Shown: positions 1,060 to 51,503, counted from the stretch's first letter. The stretch: DNA of 64,000 nucleotides from the human T2T-CHM13v2.0 reference genome, Homo sapiens (GCF_009914755.1 NC_060938.1); one strand, 5' to 3'. A program made the numbers and translations. The notes: generated from the sequence alone by a model not told the origin.

Positions 1060-1353
1060 CCCTTTTTATTCATATGTGAAGACAATAGAAAGACATTCTT
1101 CCATCACTAATATTTACTTAATTAACATTTCTGAGTGCCTTTGATATGACAAGCACTATGCTAAGTGCCATATAGGGAGAGGTGAACAAAACAGACAGGT
1201 GCTTGTATCCTAGAAAACTTTGCCTCTGCACACCTTGCTTGTGATAATAATTATAGGGCATATGCCAAACACTGAGCTATAAATCTATGAAGGAAGGATG
1301 TTGCTTACTTATCACAAGTGATAACCAGTGATACCAGTATCTATGAGCCATAG

Positions 1354-1716
<363 letters not shown>

Positions 1717-2169
1717 AAGAAAACTCTTTCTTTATTGCAGCATTAGGCACCCCCAATAAGAGCCCACTCACATCATCATGATAGACAGAAACACTGCAGG
1801 GGGAAAAATGATCTTGCCTTTGGGCACCAGGACATTGGGACCTCCCAAGTAGTCTGCATCAGTGGATCATAAGGACCAACCATTTATCAAATCTGGGAAA
1901 GACAAAAGGCAAGCATAAGATTAAAAAGTAATGCAGGTCTTCACCAGATGGCTCTGCTGCTTAATAAGTAAAATCACAATCACAGAAGGTGATAACCAAG
2001 GATAATTAGGTAAACGACCACACTCCATTTAATCACAGTTCAGAAGATCTTCCCTAATTTCTGCTGAAGTCTCTTCAATAATTTCACCTACCTCTGGAAG
2101 AAACTAGAGGACTAATGGGAAGAGTCCATTGGTGTTTATGTGGGAAAAGGAAGGTGCAAGCCATTTCAG

Positions 2170-4525: not shown

Positions 4526-5224
4526 AGACCTACCAAAATGGCCCCTTAAAGATTTCTTGAAGGCACTTTTATAGCGAGCATTAGGCTAAGTGCTGAATGT
4601 CAAGAACAAAGGCAAAACAGCTATACCTCCTGGCATCGGGGGAAGGAATGAAAGTAATAGTATCCAGTTTTGTCACTGGATTATTCCAAAAGGGTAAAAT
4701 CCTCACGCAACTCTGTTCCACAGGCACCGGGCTAGTCAGTTAATGGACGGCTGCCCTAGAGTCAAGTGCCCTCCTTTGCTTCAAAACCTTGTCACCATTC
4801 TGCTGGAGTCACAGGGTAGAGAATATGAACACCTTTGGATGCTTCCTCTCGTGGATAAAATAACCTCCTTCAGAAGGGGATCGGTGATGTAATGGATTCC
4901 ATGAAAGAAATAAGCTCTTCTCCAGCGCAGCTGAACTGTAAAGCTCATAACACAAGTAGGTCCTCAGTGCATATTCACTTCCTTTCCTTCTTACCTGAGG
5001 TGCTGCAGTGTGAATCTGAAGGTGGCAGGTTCAACGTTAAAGTGCTGCAGTGTATGAAAGTTATGGTAGACTCAGAAATCTGTTCTTCAACAGTTAGACT
5101 GTATTTATGCTGGCTGGATTTTGTTTATTCACCTATTATCGTCTACCCGTGTCAGCAACCAAGAAACCTGCAGCCTGTCTCAAAGGAAACCAAGAAAGAA
5201 GTTTTGGACTCTTGTGCAGGAAGC

Positions 5225-5420
5225 TTGTGGCGCGGCGCCCCCTGCCGACCAATACGACGGCCACGGGAACTGGGAGACCACGAAGGCTCTGGGCCTGCGG
5301 AGTTGCCCAAGCTCCTCCGGCTTCTCCGGAAACGGCTTTTTCCGGTGACACCCCTGGAGCCACAGTGATTTGTTTCCCTAAAGGAAGCGGTTTCCCGCCA
5401 GGGTATCGTCCCTAATACCC
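5225..5420. promoter_or_regulatory. Small CpG-rich promoter-like patch with CCAAT and ETS (CCGGAA) motifs
   Basis: Dense CpGs (gcgcggcgcccc, cgacggccacgg, ccggaaacgg, ttccggtg), CCAAT at 5249-5253, in a CpG-poor window. Confidence 0.5.
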
Positions 5421-5838
5421 TCCGAAGGAGCCCATTGAGGAGAAAGGCATAGAATGTCCCGCAGAAGGCAGAAGGACCCTATGATCCAGGAAACCTAGGG
5501 CCAGCCATCAGGGGGTTTTATGAGAGCAGCTGGTGGGAAGATCAGCCCCAGGAGAAGGGGATTGTCTAGCAGCTTGGTTGGAGCAAGTCTTTTCCCGAGT
5601 ATTATTTCCGTAATTCAGGCTCCCTCCCACCAACCCTCCACTGCAGCCTTATCCTCCACCAAAAGCCCTGACACTGTGGCAGGGGTAGGGCACATGGGGT
5701 TGGTGGGGAACAGGCTGTAAGAAAGACGCAGGAGCCTGCGTGCAAAGGACGAAGCATTTACAAAGAAGACCTTGACAGTGCTGCACAGATTTGAAGGCGT
5801 AGGGTGCAAGTCATTCAGGTGCCGTTGTCAGGAGGAAC

Positions 5839-6267
5839 CTAGCCATCCAGGTGAACAGATGCCCCCTTCTTGCAGCCCACTCGCATGGGCCTGGTGGACT
5901 CCTTCTTATTTTTGGTAGTGGCAGTGAAGAGGTCGGGTCCCTGTGCTGGCAAAGCAGTCAGTGACATTGACATCATGAGTACTGTTGTGGCAGCTGCACA
6001 TGGAGGGGCTGTTGGTACAGGGCAGTGGTGGAGTTCTGCAGAAATCTGCTATGGTGGTCAGATTCTATGAATGAATGTGTGGATCTGCTCGCATTTACCC
6101 CTATAGATCAGCCAACGGCGCCTCATCATCACATCACAGTATCGGTGGTGTCCTCTAGGGACCCACGACCTGGGGTTGTCTATATGTCGTGTTGAGAAGG
6201 GCAGGGCTGGAATGAAGACAGTTACGTCCAAAAGGAGGAAAAGGAGGAGGGTCCACATCAGATTTAT
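5839..6267 (-). pseudogene. Divergent RNase A superfamily pseudogene (signal peptide, 8 canonical Cys, two frameshifts)
   Basis: Manual reconstruction: [I/M]NLMWTLLLFLLLDVTVFIPALPFSTRHIDNPRSWVPRGHHRYCDVMMRRRWLIYRGKCEQIHTFIH/NLTTIADFCRTPPLPCTNSPSMCSCHNSTHDVNVTDCFASTGTRPLHCHYQ/KKESTRPMRVGCKKGASVHLDG*; acceptor tttcacag|GAAAC at 6273. Confidence 0.9.
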
Positions 6268-6972
6268 GTTTCCTGTGAAAGCATTTCAAAGAAGAGCAGA
6301 GTCAAAAGAACAAGCCACGGTCCCTTGTCCTGTTCCTAAGAAGTCTTGGCCCTATACTTAATGTTCCCAGTTCTCCCCTCCTGCCTTTTCTACACTTATT
6401 CTTTGTGTACTCTTGGCAACAAGTGTTCTCACATCCTTTTCCCACCTCCTTGTCAATAACGGAGATGACTACCGCCCTCTCAACCCTTTATGGGATTGTC
6501 CTATGTACAAGGTTATTTCCAAACCCCAAAGTGATTCTTGCTCCTTACCTAAGCAGACCAGTTAAACTAAAAACTTTCATCTCTGAGGTGTTTGCATCTA
6601 TCAGTCCATCTGCTGCTCACCCATAGCCTGTGAGGTGAGGCAGGTATCATTGCCAACCCCTTTTTAGAGTGACCTAACTCAGAAGAGAATTGACAGATCC
6701 ATATGACCTGCATCTTAGAAAATATTTTCACTTCCTTAAATACAAATGTCTGTTTAAACGCTGTTTTTAAAAATGTGAGCATTTCAATTCTAAGGGAGTA
6801 GAGTTTATGTTTCCCCCACATATTTCTCTGCCTCAAAATAAAGATTCCCAACTCTTCCATGTATAGAGCCCATCTTCCAGAAATGTTCTAATTCTTGGTG
6901 ATCAGGGATTCTGGGTGACTGTGTGTGAGCCTTCTGTCTCTAGGTCTAATATCTGACTCTTTTTTTACATAC

Positions 6973-7035
6973 CTGGTAGTTCCAAGAAAGGGTTTTCTGC
7001 AGAGCAGATGACATCCACAGAGATGGATATATCCC
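6973..7035 (-). promoter_or_regulatory. Candidate non-coding exon 1 / TATA-like region of the 5839-6267 RNase pseudogene
   Basis: Minus-strand donor CAG|GTATGT at 6973/6972 and gatatat ~55 nt upstream; would give a 700-nt intron to the acceptor at 6273, matching the two-exon RNase layout. Confidence 0.35.
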
Positions 7036-7576
7036 TCTCAGAGGTTGATACTCCTAGTAGAAATGGAATCCCCGTTGCCTCTCTCCTTCCTCTAATCTTG
7101 TAGAAATTTCATTGTGGATATTTTCTTCCCAGAGGTTAGGGTGCAGGCCGTATGGAAAACTCTCAGGCCTGTCAATGATCTTAAACAGATTGCCAGGTAT
7201 TACTAATTTTATGCTTACTATTTCACACCTAAAGTGTTCACCAGCATCACACAGAGTGCCTATGACATCACTGCAAATATGCAGAAACTTGGGGTTTAGT
7301 GTCTATCATAAGCTTGCTAATGGAGCTTGGCAAATCACCTTATCCTTCTACTCCTCATCACTAAAGTGAAGATTATAGACAAAAGATCTCTTTCAGCTCT
7401 CACATTCTGTATTTTTTTTATACATTACTGTGTGGGTTCATGTGTGATTTTGTATATGTGCATATTGGTATACACATGTTCAAGTAAGGAGAAATAATTA
7501 GTTTGCAAATTGAGTTTCCATTTGAGAATTGTTAATCTAATTAAGTGCAATTTTTCCAATTTTAAAACTCTATGAT

Positions 7577-7878
<302 letters not shown>

Positions 7879-7879
7879 T

Positions 7880-8470
7880 TATGGGTATGTAGTAGGTGTA
7901 TATATTTAAGGGGTACATGAGATATTTTGATACAGGCATCCAATGCCTAATAATCACATCAGGGTAAATGGGGTATCCATCCCTTCAAGCATTTTTTCTT
8001 TATGCTACAAACAAGCCAATTTAAATCTTTTAGTTATTTTAAAATGTACAATAAAATTATTATTGATGATAGTCACCCTATATTTGTGCTATCAAAACTA
8101 GATCTTATACATTCTTTTTTCTTTTTGAGACCGAGTCTTGTTCTGTCGCCCAGACTGGAGTGTAGTGGCATGATCTTGGCTCAGTACAACTTCTGCCTCC
8201 TGGGTTCAAGTGAGTCTCCTGCCTCAGCCTCCCAAGTAGCTGGGATTACAGGCATATGCCACCATGCCCAGCTAATTTTTGTATTTTTAGTAGGAACGGT
8301 GTTTAGCCATGTTGGCCAGGCTGGTCTTCAACCCCTGACCTCAGGTGATCTGCCGCCTCAACTTCCCAAAGTGCTAGGATTACAGGTGTGAGGCACTGTG
8401 CCCAGCCTATTCATTCTATTTTTTTTTTTTTTTTACCCATTAACCATTAACTTCCCCCTCACCCACCCTC
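7880..8470 (-). mobile_element. L1MA 3' end fragment interrupted by a minus-strand Alu (~8113-8406)
   Basis: ggggtacatgagatattttgatacaggcat...taataatcacatcagggtaaatggggtatccat is typical of L1MA 3' ends. Confidence 0.75.
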
Positions 8471-8474
8471 CAAT

Positions 8475-9660
8475 GCTAGGCACTTTGAATCAAATAAAAT
8501 GAAAGGGTGTTAGAATCAGCCTCAGAACCAAGGACTTTCTTAACTTCTCCTGTTTTGCCCCTAAGTGCAGGATGAAACTCTTCCTTTCTGAAGTTACCTT
8601 ATCCAAAGCTCCTCCAGAAAGAACCCAGTGGACTTTGATCACCTCCCTGAGATTTTCTTAACCAGAGAAGATTAAACTCACAGCAGAAAGTGAGACTGAG
8701 GGATGTCACCACACCTAGGCAGACTTTGTCAGAAGCTGTTGTCTATTCTTTGTCATACTCCAAAGAGTTTCCAAAGAGTATAATTTACAAACTATGGTAG
8801 GTTCTTTGGGCCCATTCAACTCTCCTAAAAATAATTTCCTATTCCTCAAAATTGCCTACATTCCGCCATCTCTCTCTCTCCTGTGAAGAAGGGCATATAG
8901 ATTCTGAACCTCACTGGGTTACTGGGAAGTCACTCTCTCATCATTCCCCCATGAATACAATAAACTTGCCTTTTTCTGCAGATAATCTTCCATCGGTTAA
9001 TTTCGGCAAACTCAAACCTTAAAGGGAAAGGGAAATTCCCCTTTACCCCTACATATGCAAATTAATTATTTAGATTAATAATTGCTAGATATAAAATTGG
9101 CATATGGTTTATTTATTTTTATATTTCAGCACAGGGGAGGGAAAAATGACTTCCTTCCACCCTCTTAGGTTTTTTGTGGCTGGGCTACAAGTTAAATTAC
9201 ATAAGACGGATTAACACAAGAAAAACTGTATTAAATTATGTGTGTATACATAGGAGTCCCACAAAAATATAAGACTCAAAGAAAGGCCAGATGAATAAAG
9301 CTTATATAGCATCTTAAGCTACAGAAAGAAACAGAGGCTTGGGGCTTCTGGAGAGTGGTGGTGCAAGTTACCGGAGCGTGAGAGGAGGAAACATATAGTA
9401 AATACATGGTAAATAAAGGTTGCCTTGTTATGCAGATAAGAGTCTCTCAGGGGATAAAAATTGCCTTGGAGCAGCTCTCTTCCTGATCAAAAACACCTTT
9501 ACCAGTGAAAATTTCTTTTATAGATCTAAATTTCTTTTACAAAAGGGCAGCTTTTCAGAGCTAACTCCTGTGCGGGCAGTTTCTCTAAATAAATAGTTAA
9601 TAATCAATATGCTAGAGAGGAATATTTTGGAGTGATGTGTTCTGAGCCCTAACCCCAGCA
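8475..9660. mobile_element. Two ERV1-class solo LTRs (MER39/MER34/MER4-group-like), ~8475-9053 and ~9135-9663
   Basis: gcctcagaaccaagg, aataaa, cccctaca terminus; reverse piece ending ttctgagccc...caaca. Confidence 0.5.
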
Positions 9661-9884
9661 ACAGGCAGAAACTGAAATGTTAAAATGATTCAATTTGCAA
9701 TACTATTAAAAATATTAAGTTCATAAGGAGAAAAACTAGGAAAAGATAAACAAGAACTTTATGGACAAAAGTACAAAACTTTATTGTGAGACATTAAGGT
9801 AACCAGAGAGTTAGAGCATGTTTATAGATTGCAAGACTCACTAATTTAGATACATCAATTTTTCTGCAAATTGACCTATAGATT

Positions 9885-10610
9885 TGTAATTGCCTGATGG
9901 GTTCTTCCTGCCTGCTGCACAGACAAAATCAGTTCACTGAGACCATGGCATTGCAGTAAAGAAAGGGTTTCATTGACACAAGACTGGCAACGAGGGAGAC
10001 AGAGTTATTACTCAAATCAGTCTTCCTGCAGGCTTGGAGGTTAGGGGTTTGCGAGGATAGTTTGGTGGGCAGGTGGCTAGAGAATGGGTGCTGCTGATTG
10101 GCTGGGAATGAAATCATATAGGTGTGAAAAACAATCCTCGTGGGCTGCCTCGTGGGCTGAGTCTGCATCTGGGTGGAACCACATGACTGGTTGAGTTATG
10201 AGCCCTGGTTCCATAGGTTGCCAGAATGCAAAAATCTGAAAAAACATCTCAAAAGACAAAACTCAGGCTCCACAGTAGTGATGTTACCTATAGGAGCAAT
10301 TGGAGAAGTGACAAATCTTGTGACCTCTGGTCACGTGACCCTTGAGCAGTAAGGGATTATAGAAAATACATTTCATCAGAATTCAGGAGCCTCTCATAAT
10401 CCTAACCTTGCAGCCTTTCACTAGTTTTACAGAGTTTTGGGAAAGGCTACTATCATCCTCACTTTACAGTTGAACTATAAACTAAATTCCACCTGATGTA
10501 GGTTGGCCTATGCCCAGGAATGACCATGGACAGCTTGGAGGTTAGAAGCAAGATAAAGTCAACTATGTCAGATTTCTCTTACTGTCAAAATCTTTGCAAA
10601 GGCAGTTTCA
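9885..10610 (-). mobile_element. LTR8-family solo LTR (ERV1) inserted in an old L1
   Basis: Minus strand begins TGAAACTGCCTTTGCAAAG and ends ...CAATTACA; 4-bp target site duplication gatt/gatt. Confidence 0.8.
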
Positions 10611-12294
10611 GATTCAGTACAATTCCAATCAAATTCTCAACCCAGTTTTTGTTTGTTTAGTTTGGGAACTTACTGATTCTAGAGGATATATAGATGTATA
10701 AGAATAGCAAAGACACCTTCAAAAAAAACAAACTAAAAAACAAGGTGAGAGAGTTTGTTCTACCAGAGTACATATAAAATAGAAAACAATATCTTGTTAC
10801 ATAAAAGCCTAGTATTGCTCATTGACAGGTAGCCTTGTTCCATGTATCATTCAGAGACACAGATTACTTCCATCTTGTGGTTCTGTCATTTCCTCATCCA
10901 TTTAATGTAGCTGGCAAACAGAATAGAAGGTGGAGAAGCACACTTTCTCAACTGCGTTGGCCATTTTTCACTGGCATGGCCTTCAAGTGGGAACTATAGT
11001 TCCTACCTGAGCTGTCGCTTCTCAGCATCAACCCTACACCATGCAAGAGTGAGCATAAGCCTGAGGGCAGCTAGTTACTACAGCCACAGCAATGTAAATG
11101 GTGTTGCCAGTTTCCTCTTTGTCACAGATAGGACAAGAATAGATGCAATACAGTTAAATATGAAAGTAGAGAGAAATCTAACACAGAGTTTCCCAAAAAT
11201 GAGTTAGATAAGACCCAGGAACTTGTGCAAACTCTCATCAGTGATCGACACCATGTCAACAAACTTGCAAGGAGAAAGAAAGGTCAATCCCAAAACTGGA
11301 CCAAAAACACTTTATCTCCTTATTAGAAAACAATGGCAACATTAATAATACTACACTGCAATATCATATTTAGATGTATGGGCCAGAGAAGTGGGACGTG
11401 GACATTAAAAATGAGTCCTAGGAGGCCTGTGATAATTGGGTACTGGCTGCTCAAGAGAGGCCAAGTAACCAAAAAAAGAGCTATCATGTAGGACAGCACA
11501 CATTTAAGGAAGCCTACCCTGTGCCAGAACAGGGCTGGGAGACGGACTCAAAGATAACCAAGACATGGACCCTTCTCTCAGGAACTGTCAGCCCAGTGGT
11601 TCTGGTACCAGAGGGGAAGGACCTCCTCTTAGCAGGTGCAAAGGTGAATAAAGTGATGATGGAGCTGTGGCCCACTAGAGGATGATGCAAGTACAGACAT
11701 CGGGATGGGGAATACTGGTTGTTTGGAGGTGAGCTAGTTTTCTTTTTGAAAATCATATTCCTGTTTTATTTGAAAAACCAGTCCTCCACCTTGCTCCCGT
11801 CTGTGGCTTGGATGGACTGGCTCCACCCCAGCTCCAGTAATGAGCTACTCAGTGTGTGTGTCTCATTAGATGAGATGGGCACTTGTCCCAGTCAGAGACC
11901 TTTGCTAGGAATATTGGGAGATGAAGGCAGGACTTCATCTTGAGAGAGTGGAAGATGTGGAGTTGCTGCTGTCATCTTACAGATATACAAGGAACATCTG
12001 CCTGATAGTGGGACTATGATAGAGGAGAAAGAAACAGGAAAATACAGAGAAACCATGTACTGTTTTCATCGTCTAAGTTCTGATAAGCTGCTCATTAAGC
12101 CATAACAGTTTGTTATGGCTTAGGAGAGTTTAACTGTACATTCAGGTTCTTAGGCCCTCAGAAGAGATCAAGTTCTTGGGGGTAAGGGGTTTCAGTTGTG
12201 CTAAGTGGCCAAAAGAAGGTTCTAGAGAATTTTGTCTTAGAAATCCATGAGTGTCATTTATTCATTTCCATACTGGTAGCCTTTAATTTAATAT

Positions 12295-12790
<496 letters not shown>

Positions 12791-12799
12791 TGAGAAAAT

Positions 12800-13558
12800 T
12801 ATTTTTAAGCAAAGACTTAGAGAGAGAGGAAGTTAGCTATGCACATTGTGGGTGCGGTGTGGTTAGGGTGGCCCTGAGATAGAGATATGCCTGGTGTGTT
12901 TACGGAACAGCTAAGAGGACAGGGAACTAGAGGAAATTGAGTGGGAAGGAGAAGAGTAGGAGATTAGTTTTGAAAAGCAAATGGTTTGGGAATATGGATC
13001 ATGTAAGAGCACATGAGATTTTATAAGGATTTCATTTTACTCAGGGTGAAATGAAGAAGCACTAAAAGATTTTGAGTAGAGTTTCATGATCTGACTTATG
13101 TTTTAAAAGGACCCTCTAGCTGCTTGGGCTATCAGTGGTGGAAGCAGGAAGGCCAATGAGAATGCTTTTCCAGTAATTCTAGTGAAAGGTGATGGTGGCT
13201 CAGAACGGTGGTAGCAGTGAAGGCCATGAGAAGTGGCCAGATTCTGTGTGTGATTTGAAGGCAGAAAAAGACTTCTCTGACAGGTTGGATGTGGGATATA
13301 CGAGAAAAGAAGGTTATTCAACAATTAGAGAAAATGGACTTACCTTCTCTTGAGATGAGGAATACTGAGGGAGGAACAACTTCGGGGGAAGAGTAGGAAA
13401 AGATGATCAGTGTTTCCTGGGGACATGCTAGGTTTGATATACTTATTAGACATTTAAGAAGAAATGTCACATAGAAAGTTGCTGTACAAGTATAGGGTTC
13501 AGGAGAGAGAGGTGTACTGAAGATTTGGGCATTGTTAGAAAATTAATGATATTAAAAG
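12800..13558 (+). mobile_element. L2 fragment
   Basis: Degenerate L2 phrases: atgatctgacttatgttttaaaaggac.ctctagctgct, ggacatgctaggtttga. Confidence 0.6.
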
Positions 13559-13559
13559 T

Positions 13560-35654: not shown

Positions 35655-37190
35655 AGGATGGCCATATAGAAGTATCCATTGATTTCACCCCCACACATAC
35701 CAGCAGAAACACCACATTTAACAACTATCTACACACAAAAAAGGACCTACATAGGAAATAAAAATCAGGTCAACCATCATTGTACCTGATTTTAACTTCG
35801 TATCACTGAAAAAGGCACTGAAGAGATGAGGAAAGACAATTTTGAATCACTGAGGCCACCACTCCCCCATGTCCCAGTAGCTGCCACTGGAGCTGAGACA
35901 GAAACTCAGTGCATGGGGGAGGGAGAGTGCAGCAATTGTGAAAATCTGCATTGAACTCAGTGCTGCCCTGTCACAGCCCACCCACAGAGGGAGCATTCAG
36001 ACCAACCTTAGCCAGAGGGGAATCAATCGCCTATCCAAGCAGTCAGTATGTGAGTTTGGGAAAGCCTTGCCAAAGCAGGCTAAAGTGCTCTGGGGTCCTA
36101 AATGCATTTGAAACTCAATCTAGGCCACAAGAACTACAACTACAAGGCAAGTCCCAGTGCTGTGCTGGGCTCAGAGCCAGTGGACTTGGACACCACTAGT
36201 GTGACACTTGTCAGGGCAGCTAAGGGAGTGCTTGCACAACCACTCCTCCAACCCCAGGCAGCACAGCTCACAGCAGTGAAAGTGACTGCTTCCTTCTGCT
36301 TGAGGAAAGGAGAGGAAAGAGTAACTAGGACATTGTCTTACATCGTAAATGTCAGTTCAGCCACAATAGGATAGGGCACCAGTCAGAGTCATGAAGCCAC
36401 CATTCCAGGCACTCGCTCCTGAAGGACATTTCTAGACACACCCTGCACCAGAAGAAAACCCACTGCCTAGAAGGAAAGGACCCAGTCCTGCCAGGATTCA
36501 TCACCTGCTGACTGAAGAACCCTCAGGCCCTAAATAACCAGCAGCAATACCTAGTAGTACACTCCATGGGCCTTGGGTGAGACTCTGAGATATGCTGGCT
36601 TCAGGAGAGACCCACCATATTCACAGCCATGGTAGTCATGAAGAGAGAATCCTTCTGCTTGAGAAAAGCAGAGGGAAAATAAAGGGGACTCTGTCTTGCA
36701 GCTTAGACAGCAGCTTAGCTACAGCGGGGTAGAGCACCAAGCCAGCTCTTGGAGTCCCCAGTTCCAGATCTTGGCTTTTGGTTGGCATTTCTGGACATGC
36801 CCTGGGTCAGAGGGGAGCCTACTGCCCTGAAGGGTGAGTCCCAGGCCAGGCAGCATTCACCACAAGCTGGCTAAAGAACTCTGGGGCCTTAAGGGAACAC
36901 TGGCATCATCCTGTCAGTATTCCCCTTGAGCCTGCGGTGGAGGTAGCTGCAGGGAGAGGCTCCTCTGCCTGTGGAAGAGTAAGGGAAGAGTGGAAGGACT
37001 CCAGCTCAGCCACAGTAAAACAGAACACCATGTAAACCTCCCAGGTTGTTTACTTCAGTCCCTGGCTCTCAGACAGTACCTCTGGACATGCCTGGGCCTA
37101 GAGGAACTCATCACCCTGAAGGGAAGGACACAAGCCTGGCTGGTATTGCCACCTGCTCTAGGGCCTTGTAGAGCTCTAGGGCCTTGAGTG
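35655..37190 (+). mobile_element. Old L1 5' region (L1PB/L1MA-like), cut at the duplication junction; its paralogue begins at ~63820
   Basis: aacaactatctacacac, tttaacttc.tatcactgaaa, repeated cttctgcttgag.aaag.agagg modules. Confidence 0.55.
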
Positions 37191-38014
37191 AGGCCCTCAC
37201 TTCCAAGAAAGAAATAAACTCTTTTCCACTGCAGCTAAACTGTAAAGCTCATAACACAAGTAGATCCTCTGTGCATATTCACTTCCTTTCCTTCTTACGC
37301 AAGGTGCTACAGTGTGAATCTGAATGTGGCAAGTTCAACACTAAAGTCCTGGAGTGCAGGAAAGTTATGGTAGACTCAGAAATCTGTTCTTCAACATTTA
37401 GACTGTATTTATGATGGCTGAATTTTCTGTCTAGTCACCTATGGTCCTCTACCTGGGCGACAGAGTGAGGCTCCGTCTCAAAAAAAAAAAATAGTTTAGC
37501 ATGCCAAAGTACCATCCTTTGGAGTATAGTGTGCTGAGCCCCAACAAAAGCCATGAGATTAGATATGATCATGAAGAGAGTGCATGAGTCCATAGAAAAG
37601 AAAGAATAGCTAACCCCTAGGAACCTCCACCATCAAGATGCTGGAGAGAAAGGGGAAGAATTAATGAAGCAGACTGAGAACATGAGTCCAGGGACTTAGA
37701 AGAAATGATCAGGAAAGGGTGGGGTGTTGTAACTCAGCACACATCCTTGACAAGACTGTCTGCCTTGAGGGCACCAGGCCTGATCTCACCAGACTTTTCA
37801 TTCTGTTTCTGTCACAAGAAGATCATTCTCAGGTCAGCTTCATCAAGGAGCAGGGAGAAATCAACTCTGTCAAATGCTGCTGAGCATGGAAAGTTAACAC
37901 TGTCAGGGGAGAAATGTCTTACTCCAAGTGCAAACCTTCCCTCATGACCACTGCTGATGGGGTGGAAGAGTCTGGGCAATTCATTGAAGAGGTATCCAAA
38001 TTTCTGGGTCTAAG

Positions 38015-50720: not shown

Positions 50721-50786
50721 GCTGCCCCTGAACCCCAGAACAACCAGCTGGATCAATTCTCATAGGAGCCACAGCGCGGAGACTGT

Positions 50787-51503
<717 letters not shown>

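What the first reader, a model, noticed from the sequence alone, without database searches (positions are those of the whole stretch)
5839..6267. Nearly intact pseudogene of a distinct RNase A lineage (not like human RNase 1-13 as I recall them)
Seen: a 429-nt span (142 codons + TAG) with a signal peptide, RHID (His12 equivalent), YCDVMMRRR, C-E-Q-I-H-T-F-I-H in place of CKxxNTF, all eight canonical cysteines plus one extra, and terminal VHLDG (His119 equivalent). Lesions are few: a probable start ATG>ATA (in-frame ATG three codons later), a -1 frameshift after TFIH (~6066), a +1 frameshift after CHYQ (~5910), and Lys41>Glu (AAG>GAG). The acceptor cag|GAAAC is the same as in RNASE3. Inference: few lesions imply a fairly recent primate or hominoid loss of a secreted cationic (Arg-rich) RNase that may still be intact in other mammals. 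It may already appear in comparative RNase surveys as an extra-numbered lineage, which must be checked.
Basis: partly seen in the sequence, partly recalled or inferred. Interest (0 to 1): 0.8.

Follow-up and report, generated by a model that had tools for sequence, protein, structure and literature searches.

The report
Human RNase14 pseudogene, already published
This is a dead copy of an old secreted ribonuclease gene (the "RNase14" lineage) that still looks intact in bison, tree shrew and marmot; it was already counted in a 2013 survey, and it broke before apes and Old World monkeys split, so it is not a recent loss.

Summary
On the minus strand, window 5839-6267 reads as an RNase A-family coding exon in three frame pieces, and two of them pass Pfam RnaseA.

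It is not new. Goo & Cho 2013 (PMC3845642) define an extra-numbered lineage, RNase14, lying between RNase1 and RNase2/3. They found it intact only in cow, and their Table 1 lists two human RNase14 pseudogenes. The human assembly holds exactly two loci of this lineage: this one, and a second about 60.5 kb further on beside RNASE2. The second copy was carried along by the RNASE3/RNASE2 block duplication.

The loss is old. A macaque protein model ends at the same premature stop after CHYQK but keeps the ATG, Lys41 and the unbroken TFIH region. The Lys>Glu change and the 1-nt deletion are shared by both human copies. ATG>ATA is found only in this copy.

Intact-looking orthologues exist in bison, tree shrew and marmot, and in alpaca with His12 replaced by Arg.

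Verdict: an ordinary unprocessed pseudogene that is already in print; low interest.

The parts
5839..6267 (-). Remnant coding region of the RNase14 pseudogene (copy 1 of 2 in the human genome), read in three frame pieces
   Evidence: The bison orthologue P0006 matches 6267-5845 at E 4e-38 within the window and at E 1.8e-38 genome-wide.
6273..6275 (-). Splice acceptor cag, followed by GAAAC and then the former start codon. This is the same context as in RNASE3 and RNASE2CP, and it coincides with the exon boundary 6272 of lncRNA model LOC100507513.
   Evidence: and the hub annotation table.
6265..6267 (-). Former start codon, now ATA. It is ATG in human copy 2, and Met in the macaque, bison, alpaca and marmot models.
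6256..6258 (-). In-frame ATG three codons downstream. It opens only a 66-codon ORF that ends at the TGA at 6058-6060.
6184..6186 (-). CAT, the His12-equivalent codon (RHID)
6088..6090 (-). GAG, the Lys41-equivalent position changed to Glu. It is Lys in 6 of 6 relatives examined (macaque, P0004, tree shrew, bison, alpaca, marmot) and Glu in human copy 2 as well.
6079..6081 (-). CAC, Asn44 of CKxxNTF changed to His. Macaque, P0004 and human copy 2 share the change.
6064..6066 (-). Site of the 1-nt deletion in the codon after TFIH (frame A to frame B); TGA follows in the old frame at 6058-6060. The deletion is absent in macaque and P0004 and present in human copy 2.
5906..5913 (-). 4-nt insertion after CHYQ (frame B to frame C), which creates the TAA at 5906-5908. 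The macaque model ends exactly here. P0004 and human copy 2 carry the same reading.
5851..5853 (-). CAC, the His119-equivalent codon (VHLDG), now downstream of two frame changes
4995..6272 (-). Exon of the predicted lncRNA LOC100507513 that contains the whole pseudogene ORF. It has a canonical acceptor and a donor CAG|GTAAGA below 4995. An AATAAA lies at about 5124-5129, 712 nt past the TAG.
   Evidence: Hub annotation table.
6973..7179 (-). Upstream exon of the same lncRNA model (donor CAG|GTATGT). It may be the former non-coding first exon of the RNase gene; this is inferred only.
   Evidence: Hub annotation table.

Best explanation
Window 5839-6267 (minus strand) is the coding exon of an unprocessed, non-functional pseudogene of the RNase14 lineage of the RNase A superfamily. 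It is one of the two human RNase14 pseudogenes counted by Goo & Cho 2013.

The ancestral gene encoded a secreted, cationic, 8-cysteine RNase with the full His12/Lys41/His119 triad and the CKxxNTF signature, as still seen in bison, tree shrew and marmot.

In the primate line, a 4-nt insertion after CHYQ created a premature TAA that removes the last cysteine and His119. This happened before humans and macaques split (inferred). The Asn44>His change and an extra cysteine are equally old.

Later, on the human side, came Lys41>Glu and a 1-nt deletion after TFIH. Both human copies share these two changes, probably through gene conversion.

ATG>ATA arose in this copy only. The sister copy, about 60.5 kb further on, lost its AG acceptor instead.

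The two copies exist because the block running from the pseudogene through RNASE2/3 was duplicated as a unit.

No RNase can be made from it. At most, the exon is carried as part of a predicted lncRNA that uses the old RNase splice acceptor.
For: Family membership: Pfam RnaseA hits on 2 of 3 pieces at consecutive profile positions.

Orthology: over pieces A and B, identity is 107 of 119 aa to macaque P0009, 91 of 115 to tree shrew P0005, 89 of 119 to bison P0006, 85 of 119 to alpaca and 84 of 119 to marmot. These sequences form a 100/99 clade that excludes human RNASE1, RNASE3 and three further human paralogue loci.

Position: the locus lies between RNASE1 (about 66 kb before the window) and RNASE3 (22.8 kb) in the hub table. 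This equals Goo & Cho's consensus order 'RNase6-RNase1, RNase14, RNase2/3' (passages read).

Copy number: the whole-genome search gave 14 matching rows. Four of them are two frames each of two loci of this lineage; the other 10 are weaker paralogue rows. Table 1 of the paper gives human R14 (2) against R15 (1).

Lesions.

Shared truncation: macaque P0009 is 120 aa and ends CHYQK. P0004 reads ...KNKKE... in the human frame C.

Duplication: window 4.9-23.8 kb is collinear with 65.4-87.9 kb at 89-95% identity.

Conversion: the ORF has 9 mismatches in 429, against 132 in 2221 over the rest of the aligned 2.7 kb (Fisher p 5.8e-4). The tract 5839-6110 has 2 mismatches in 272.

No constraint since duplication: 8 of the 9 ORF differences between the copies change the amino acid (read from the alignment and translations).
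Against: I could not read the paper's Supplementary Table S2 or its sequence dataset (PDFs), nor its figures. The match to 'Hs-RNase14ps' therefore rests on map order and copy number, not on coordinates or sequence.

I had no cow RNase14 record (BC111643); the bison protein stands in for it.

One paper labels a cattle locus LOC782739 as 'RNASE15, RNASE4L', and the bison protein is named 'ribonuclease 4-like' by its source, so the number 14 versus 15 is not proven by name.

One sentence of Goo & Cho calls 'RNases 13-15' noncanonical, whereas the bison protein has the full triad and motif.

The macaque lesion is inferred from a protein model that ends at the same residue. Without macaque DNA, a separate nonsense change cannot be excluded.

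Identity between the two human blocks is uneven anyway, with 200-nt bins ranging from 87.5% to 99%, so gene conversion is suggestive and not proven.

No expression data were examined; the lncRNA model is a prediction.
Confidence: 0.88

Rival explanations
1. It is the human RNase15 pseudogene (the other extra-numbered lineage of Cho & Zhang 2006 and Goo & Cho 2013), not RNase14.
For: The porcine immunome paper writes 'LOC782739 (RNASE15, RNASE4L)' for a gene shared by cattle and pig. The bison orthologue is named 'ribonuclease 4-like' by its source. I never saw a sequence labelled RNase14.
Against: The consensus order puts RNase15 after RNase7/8, at the far end of the cluster, and RNase14 between RNase1 and RNase2/3, where this locus lies. 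RNase15 is single-copy in all 7 primates of Table 1, whereas R14 is (2) in human, and the human genome holds 2 loci of this lineage. The R14 counts are 0 in gibbon and marmoset, the two primates with only one RNase2/3 gene. That fits a pseudogene duplicated together with the RNASE2/3 block.
Confidence: 0.07
2. One reading: a recent hominoid or human-lineage loss of a gene that was functional until lately.
For: There are only five or six lesions in 429 nt. Three of them (ATG>ATA, Lys41>Glu and the 1-nt deletion) are absent from the macaque model.
Against: The macaque model stops at the same CHYQK position and lacks the C-terminal cysteine and His119. P0004 carries the same frame-C reading. Asn44>His in the signature motif is shared too. 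Human and macaque differ at 12 of 119 aligned residues, and 8 of 9 differences between the two human copies are non-synonymous. This looks unconstrained. Goo & Cho count RNase14 pseudogenes, with no intact gene, in 5 of 7 primates including rhesus, and none at all in the other 2.
Confidence: 0.04
3. The locus still does something. Either it acts as RNA (an exon of lncRNA LOC100507513, or an enhancer-bearing segment that regulates RNASE3/RNASE2), or it encodes a short secreted peptide from the 66-codon ORF starting at the ATG at 6256-6258. This is not exclusive of its being a pseudogene.
For: The RefSeq lncRNA model uses the old RNase acceptor at 6272 and canonical donors (hub table). RefSeq marks enhancers at 5228-5327 and 5438-5487 inside the same exon (hub table). 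The ORF is more alike between the two copies than its flanks are. A GWAS signal lies in an intron of the lncRNA, upstream of RNASE3 (passage read).
Against: The lncRNA model is predicted, and no expression data were seen. Copy 2 has lost the acceptor AG, and copy 1 the first ATG. 8 of 9 ORF differences between the copies are non-synonymous, which argues against a conserved peptide. The excess similarity is explained as well by gene conversion. By my arithmetic from the paper's coordinates, the GWAS variant lies several kb from the pseudogene.
Confidence: 0.1

Closest known systems
Human RNase14 pseudogenes of Goo & Cho 2013 (Genome Biol Evol 5:2124, PMC3845642); the lineage was first named in cow by Cho & Zhang 2006 (not held here)
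   Same: The map position between RNase1 and RNase2/3 is the same. There are two copies in human. It is a pseudogene in primates, and it is orthologous to an intact bovid gene.
   Different: Nothing was shown to differ. The paper's coordinates and sequences are in PDF supplements that I could not open. RefSeq annotates no pseudogene here, only a lncRNA (hub table).
Bovid 'ribonuclease 4-like' protein P0006 (bison; 32-member cluster), taken as the stand-in for cow RNase14
   Same: 89 of 119 residues are identical over pieces A and B. It has the same MNL..W signal start, the same cysteine framework and the same ...VHLD end.
   Different: The bovid gene has an open 141-codon frame with His12, Lys41, Asn44 and His119 in place. 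The human locus has ATA for ATG, Glu41, His44, a 1-nt deletion and a 4-nt insertion.
RNASE2CP (ECRP), the annotated pseudogene at window 50723-51558
   Same: It is also an unprocessed RNase A-family pseudogene in the same cluster, produced by local segmental duplication, with the same cag|GAAAC ATG exon start.
   Different: It belongs to a different lineage (RNase2/3). The tree shrew and bison orthologues match it at only 25-29% identity. The RNASE2CP block is a partial copy (14.1-37.45 kb) that does not include an RNase14 pseudogene.
Human RNase 1, RNase 4 and angiogenin (nearest functional and solved relatives)
   Same: They share the RNase A domain over its full length, the 8-cysteine pattern of RNase 1/4, and motifs of the YC..MM.RR and NTFIH type.
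   Different: Similarity is only 65-77 bits to solved RNase 1, RNase 4 and ANG chains, and 36-40% identity to the human paralogue loci. They sit on separate branches of the tree. The 'ribonuclease 4' names on the orthologues are best-hit labels.
Marsupial RNases (wombat P0017, with Tasmanian devil, opossum and koala relatives)
   Same: They are the sister group of the eutherian clade at 100/98 support. They share the unusual MWTLFLLLLLDLT-type signal peptide and the H.DYP...PG..YCNVMM N-terminus.
   Different: They are only 40-46% identical to the bison protein. Only P0017 has a name from a source; the other six rows are unnamed. RNases 9-13 and RNase15 were not in my tree.

Membership tests
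RNase A superfamily (Pfam PF00074) | Significant match to the RnaseA profile | tested here: met
   Pieces A and B score 32.9 and 32.3 bits against a cut-off of 23.1, at profile positions 5-46 and 48-96. Piece C (27 aa) gave no hit. Orthologues score 102.6-112.8 bits over the full profile.
RNase A superfamily (Pfam PF00074) | Catalytic triad His12 / Lys41 / His119 | tested here: not met
   In the human locus the His12 codon is present, Lys41 is Glu, and the His119 codon lies behind two frame changes and a stop. The triad is complete in bison, tree shrew and marmot; alpaca has Arg at His12. The human locus is therefore a member by descent, not a working enzyme gene.
RNase A superfamily (Pfam PF00074) | CKxxNTF signature | tested here: not met
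   Human has CEQIHTF; macaque and P0004 have CKQIHTF; the 4 non-primate full-length orthologues have CKQINTF.
RNase A superfamily (Pfam PF00074) | Six to eight conserved cysteines | tested here: met
   The read-through has 9 Cys: the 8 that align with RNase A-type positions, plus one extra in SMCSC.
RNase A superfamily (Pfam PF00074) | N-terminal signal peptide; coding region in a single exon after a non-coding exon | tested here: inconclusive
   A hydrophobic N-terminus is seen by eye, but no signal-peptide predictor was run. The acceptor 5 nt before the start is identical in context to RNASE3.
RNase A superfamily (Pfam PF00074) | RNase A fold | not testable with these tools
RNase14 lineage (Cho & Zhang 2006; Goo & Cho 2013) | Map position between RNase1 and RNase2/3 | tested here: met
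   The hub table has RNASE1 before the window and RNASE3 at 22.8 kb. The RNASE1 locus is confirmed at chr14:14999064-14999417. The consensus order comes from the paper.
RNase14 lineage (Cho & Zhang 2006; Goo & Cho 2013) | Two pseudogene copies in human (RNase15 has one) | tested here: met
   There are two loci of this lineage in the T2T assembly; Table 1 gives the counts.
RNase14 lineage (Cho & Zhang 2006; Goo & Cho 2013) | Orthology to cow RNase14 (mRNA BC111643) | not testable with these tools
   The record is not at hand, and the supplementary dataset is an unreadable PDF. The bison protein of the same clade was used as a proxy.
Unprocessed (duplicated or unitary-type) pseudogene | Sits in the parental cluster, retains intron-exon structure, and the frame is disrupted | tested here: met
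   The acceptor is retained. There are two frame changes and three in-frame stops. The locus is collinear with its sister copy over at least 19 kb.

The most novel reading that the evidence does not exclude
RNase14 is not 'cow-only', as the 2013 survey concluded. Open, triad-bearing ORFs persist in scattered eutherians (bovids, tree shrew, marmot; alpaca with His12>Arg). The marsupial 'species-specific' RNases are its co-orthologues. That would make RNase14 an overlooked, catalytically canonical, therian-wide fourteenth RNase, whose repeated independent loss (here in stem catarrhines, just as the EDN/ECP block began to duplicate) needs a functional explanation.
Probability: 0.4. Interest if true: 0.35.

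Novelty: already known. Interest (0 to 1): 0.15.

Why it matters
It matters little for human biology. The locus is a long-dead gene, and its existence, lineage and copy number were published in 2013.

There are three minor gains:
- RefSeq gives no pseudogene annotation here, so the lncRNA exon 4995-6272 could be misread as novel coding potential. This report says what it is.
- The order of lesions, and the evidence that the pseudogene travelled with the RNASE2/RNASE3 duplication and was partly homogenised, add detail to a classic example of primate gene-family evolution.
- The intact tree shrew, marmot and bovid ORFs suggest that the 'retained only in cow' statement is outdated. They also offer natural proteins for asking what RNase14 does.

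Tried and rejected
- A second copy inside the window: none was found. tblastn with P0004-P0006 found only RNASE3 and RNASE2CP as weak paralogue hits. A 48-aa, E 0.57 hit of piece B at 35806-35949 was not reproduced with the intact orthologues and is treated as chance.
- The 152-bp match 4998-5147 to 37302-37453 looked like a second locus. It is better explained as the repeated edge of the duplication unit.
- LOC100130571, a 477-bp pseudogene beyond the window, was considered as the second RNase14 copy. No RNase similarity was found there (L013, 0 hits).
- Literature: searches for RNase14/RNASE14/'RNase 14', RNASE14P/RNase14ps/RNASE15P/RNASE1P1/RNASE4P (0 papers), BC111643/RNase15, LOC782739/RNASE4L and a broader RNase-survey query found only Goo & Cho 2013 describing this lineage. 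Cho & Zhang 2006 is not held.
- The supplements of Goo & Cho (coordinates, sequences) are unreadable PDFs.
- The protein atlas gave only generic RnaseA clusters.
- A Pfam scan of the third degenerate locus by reference failed because of stops. I only listed its ORFs.

Full report
**What is in the sequence**

The feature lies on the minus strand. Read 5'->3' on that strand, a polypyrimidine tract and cacag are followed by GAAAC and then ATA AAT CTG ATG TGG ....

From 6267, one frame gives 69 residues: a hydrophobic leader, then STRHIDNPRSWVPRGHHRYCDVMMRRRWLIYRGKCEQIHTFIHRI, then TGA. A second frame from 6064 gives NLTTIADFCRTPPLPCTNSPSMCSCHNSTHDVNVTDCFASTGTRPLHCHYQK, then TAA. The first frame resumes with ...KNKKESTRPMRVGCKKGASVHLDG, then TAG at 5839-5841.

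Pfam RnaseA matches the first two pieces above its cut-off at consecutive profile positions (5-46 and 48-96 of 121). The 27-residue third piece gave no hit alone.

Against solved RNase A chains, the H of RHID aligns with His12, the E of CEQ with Lys41 and the H of QIHTF with Asn44.

The exon start is the same as in RNASE3 and RNASE2CP in this window (cag|GAAAC ATG), except that ATG is ATA.

**What it is orthologous to**

A word-indexed search with the first piece returned three full-length proteins at 79-88% identity. A second search with the bison protein returned 12 proteins at E <= 0.001 among 37 candidates. These include the following:
- bison 'ribonuclease 4-like' (141 aa, a 32-member cluster);
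- alpaca (141 aa);
- tree shrew 'Ribonuclease 4' (137 aa);
- marmot (142 aa);
- a macaque model 'seminal ribonuclease-like' (120 aa);
- partial cetacean, yak and camel records.

All six proteins scanned pass Pfam RnaseA. The four full-length non-primate orthologues score 102.6-112.8 bits.

Bison, tree shrew and marmot carry His12, CKQINTF and PVHLD. Tree shrew and marmot have eight cysteines, and bison has a ninth. Alpaca reads RRRID, that is Arg in place of His12.

Over pieces A and B, the human reading is identical at 107 of 119 positions to macaque, 91 of 115 to tree shrew and 89 of 119 to bison.

**A lineage apart from RNases 1-13**

In the human genome, the bison protein finds this locus and one other at E about 1e-38. 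It then finds RNASE1 at 38% identity and other paralogue loci at 29-40%.

I built a 44-row maximum-likelihood tree. It held the human read-through with X at both breaks, five orthologues, four human paralogue ORFs taken from fetched loci, RNASE3 from the window, mouse RNase6 and 32 unnamed representatives.
- Human, macaque, tree shrew, bison, alpaca and marmot form one clade with 100/99 support.
- This clade is separate from the RNASE1, RNase4-like, ANG-like and RNASE3/6/7-like branches.
- RNases 9-13 and RNase15 were not in the tree.
- Its sister, at 100/98, is a set of seven representatives. One of them is a wombat protein with Tasmanian devil, opossum and koala relatives.
- These share the lineage's distinctive signal peptide and N-terminus.

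**It is already in print**

I read passages and Table 1 of Goo & Cho 2013 (PMC3845642); I could not read its figures or supplements. The paper recognises 13 ancient lineages, including two extra-numbered ones, RNase14 and RNase15, first seen in cow by Cho & Zhang 2006.

It gives the consensus order '...RNase6-RNase1, RNase14, RNase2/3, RNase13, RNase7/8, RNase15'. [quoted passage not shown]

Table 1 lists the following pseudogene counts:
- R14: human 2, chimpanzee 1, gorilla 2, orangutan 3, rhesus 2, gibbon 0, marmoset 0; cow has one functional gene.
- R15: one in each of the seven primates.

The present locus lies between RNASE1 and RNASE3 (hub table). The T2T assembly contains exactly two loci of this lineage. 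Both facts point to RNase14 and not RNase15.

Caveats:
- I could not see the paper's coordinates or sequences.
- One other paper attaches 'RNASE15, RNASE4L' to a cattle locus.
- One sentence in Goo & Cho calls 'RNases 13-15' noncanonical, which does not fit the bison protein.

My searches found no other paper describing the lineage.

**The second copy and the duplication**

The sister copy lies at chr14:15132359-15132781 on the minus strand. That is about 60.5 kb further on, roughly 2.4 kb past the window end, and about 20 kb before RNASE2.

Window 4.9-23.8 kb (pseudogene through RNASE3) is collinear with 65.4-87.9 kb (sister copy through RNASE2) at 89-95% identity. The RNASE2CP block (37.9-64 kb) copies only 14.1-37.45 kb and has no RNase14 remnant.

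The pseudogene was therefore duplicated as a passenger of the RNASE2/RNASE3 block duplication. The paper, citing Rosenberg et al. 1995, places that duplication in the catarrhine ancestor.

This also explains why the R14 counts are zero in the two primates that have a single RNase2/3 gene.

**Order of the lesions**

The two human copies differ at 10 of 452 aligned bases, with no gaps.
- Both copies have Glu41, His44, the 1-nt deletion after TFIH and the 4-nt insertion after CHYQ.
- Copy 1 alone has ATA for ATG.
- Copy 2 alone has AA for the acceptor AG.

The macaque model keeps Met1, Lys41 and an unbroken TFIH-K-NLT. However, it has His44 and the extra cysteine, and it ends at CHYQK, exactly where the insertion creates TAA in human.

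P0004 is an unnamed primate-like record. It shares one derived Arg>Cys change with macaque. It reads ...KNKKE... in the human third frame, so it carries the same insertion.

From this I infer the following order:
1. The insertion, Asn44>His and the extra cysteine predate the human-macaque split.
2. Lys41>Glu and the 1-nt deletion came later, on the human side.
3. The start-codon loss in copy 1 and the acceptor loss in copy 2 are specific to one copy each.

If the duplication predates that split, then two later lesions present in both human copies imply gene conversion between the copies. In line with this, the ORF shows 9 mismatches in 429, against 132 in 2221 over the rest of the aligned 2.7 kb (Fisher p 5.8e-4). 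The tract 5839-6110, which holds both indels and codon 41, shows 2 mismatches in 272. Identity is uneven elsewhere too, so this is suggestive only.

Eight of the nine ORF differences between the copies are non-synonymous, and human and macaque differ at 12 of 119 residues. Both figures look unconstrained.

**How it 'works'**

It does not encode an RNase. From the remaining ATG at 6256-6258, the longest frame is 66 codons, ending before the third cysteine.

The exon survives as exon 4995-6272 of the predicted lncRNA LOC100507513. That model uses the ancestral acceptor, has a GT donor below 4995, and starts beyond the window near the sister copy (hub table). I saw no expression data.

**Verdict**

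This is an ordinary unprocessed pseudogene of a published lineage.

The modest additions here are the lesion chronology, the passenger duplication with likely conversion, and intact-looking ORFs outside cow.

Noticed in passing
outside the window: chr14:15132359-15132781 (-), window-equivalent about 66359-66781 (L002, L009): This is the second human copy of the same pseudogene. It is 97.8% identical over 452 nt. It keeps ATG but has the acceptor AG changed to AA. It shares both indels and Glu41 with the copy in the window.
   Followed up: yes
window 14095-37453 versus 37885-64000, and window 4897-23837 versus 65376-87890 (beyond the window): The window shows a tandem segmental-duplication architecture. 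One full unit runs from the RNase14 pseudogene through RNASE3. A partial unit carries RNASE2CP without the RNase14 remnant. A second full unit ends in RNASE2. The 152-bp match 4998-5147 to 37302-37453 sits at the unit edge.
   Followed up: partly
L012 about 1333-1760 (-), chr14:15186333-15186760, roughly 120 kb past the window start, within the METTL17 span: This is a third, much more decayed RNase A-like remnant in several frames. The pieces include ...YCDVII and ...PVHLEG followed by a stop. It is 33-45% identical to many representatives and close to none. It may be the human RNase15 pseudogene, but its position does not match the published consensus order.
   Followed up: partly
protein P0007 (alpaca), residues about 26-30: The alpaca orthologue has an open frame but reads RRRID where the others read RRHID or TRHID. 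The His12 equivalent is Arg, so it may be catalytically dead or decaying.
   Followed up: no
protein P0004 (unnamed source, 139 aa): This database 'protein' with a Pfam RnaseA tag is really a pseudogene read-through. It switches to the out-of-frame reading after SPSMCS and returns in frame through the shared 4-nt insertion. The result is an uninterrupted but meaningless ORF.
   Followed up: partly
Goo & Cho 2013 text: The paper states that RNase14 is functional only in cow among 20 mammals. Protein models from tree shrew, marmot, alpaca and bovids, species outside that sample apart from cow, look intact. The paper's sentence calling 'RNases 13-15' noncanonical does not fit the bison protein's full triad and CKxxNTF.
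   Followed up: partly
intron of LOC100507513 upstream of RNASE3 (about window 19 kb, by my arithmetic from hg19 coordinates given in the paper): A GWAS of LGI1-antibody encephalitis (PMC11884648, one table row read) reports rs78719136 as an intron variant of this lncRNA in the RNase cluster. It is not in the pseudogene itself.
   Followed up: no
marsupial proteins P0016-P0019, P0023, P0024, P0029, P0163-P0165: A marsupial RNase group (wombat, Tasmanian devil, opossum and koala names where given) is sister to the eutherian RNase14 clade and shares its signal peptide. The 2013 survey lists 15 opossum genes as belonging to none of the 13 lineages.
   Followed up: partly
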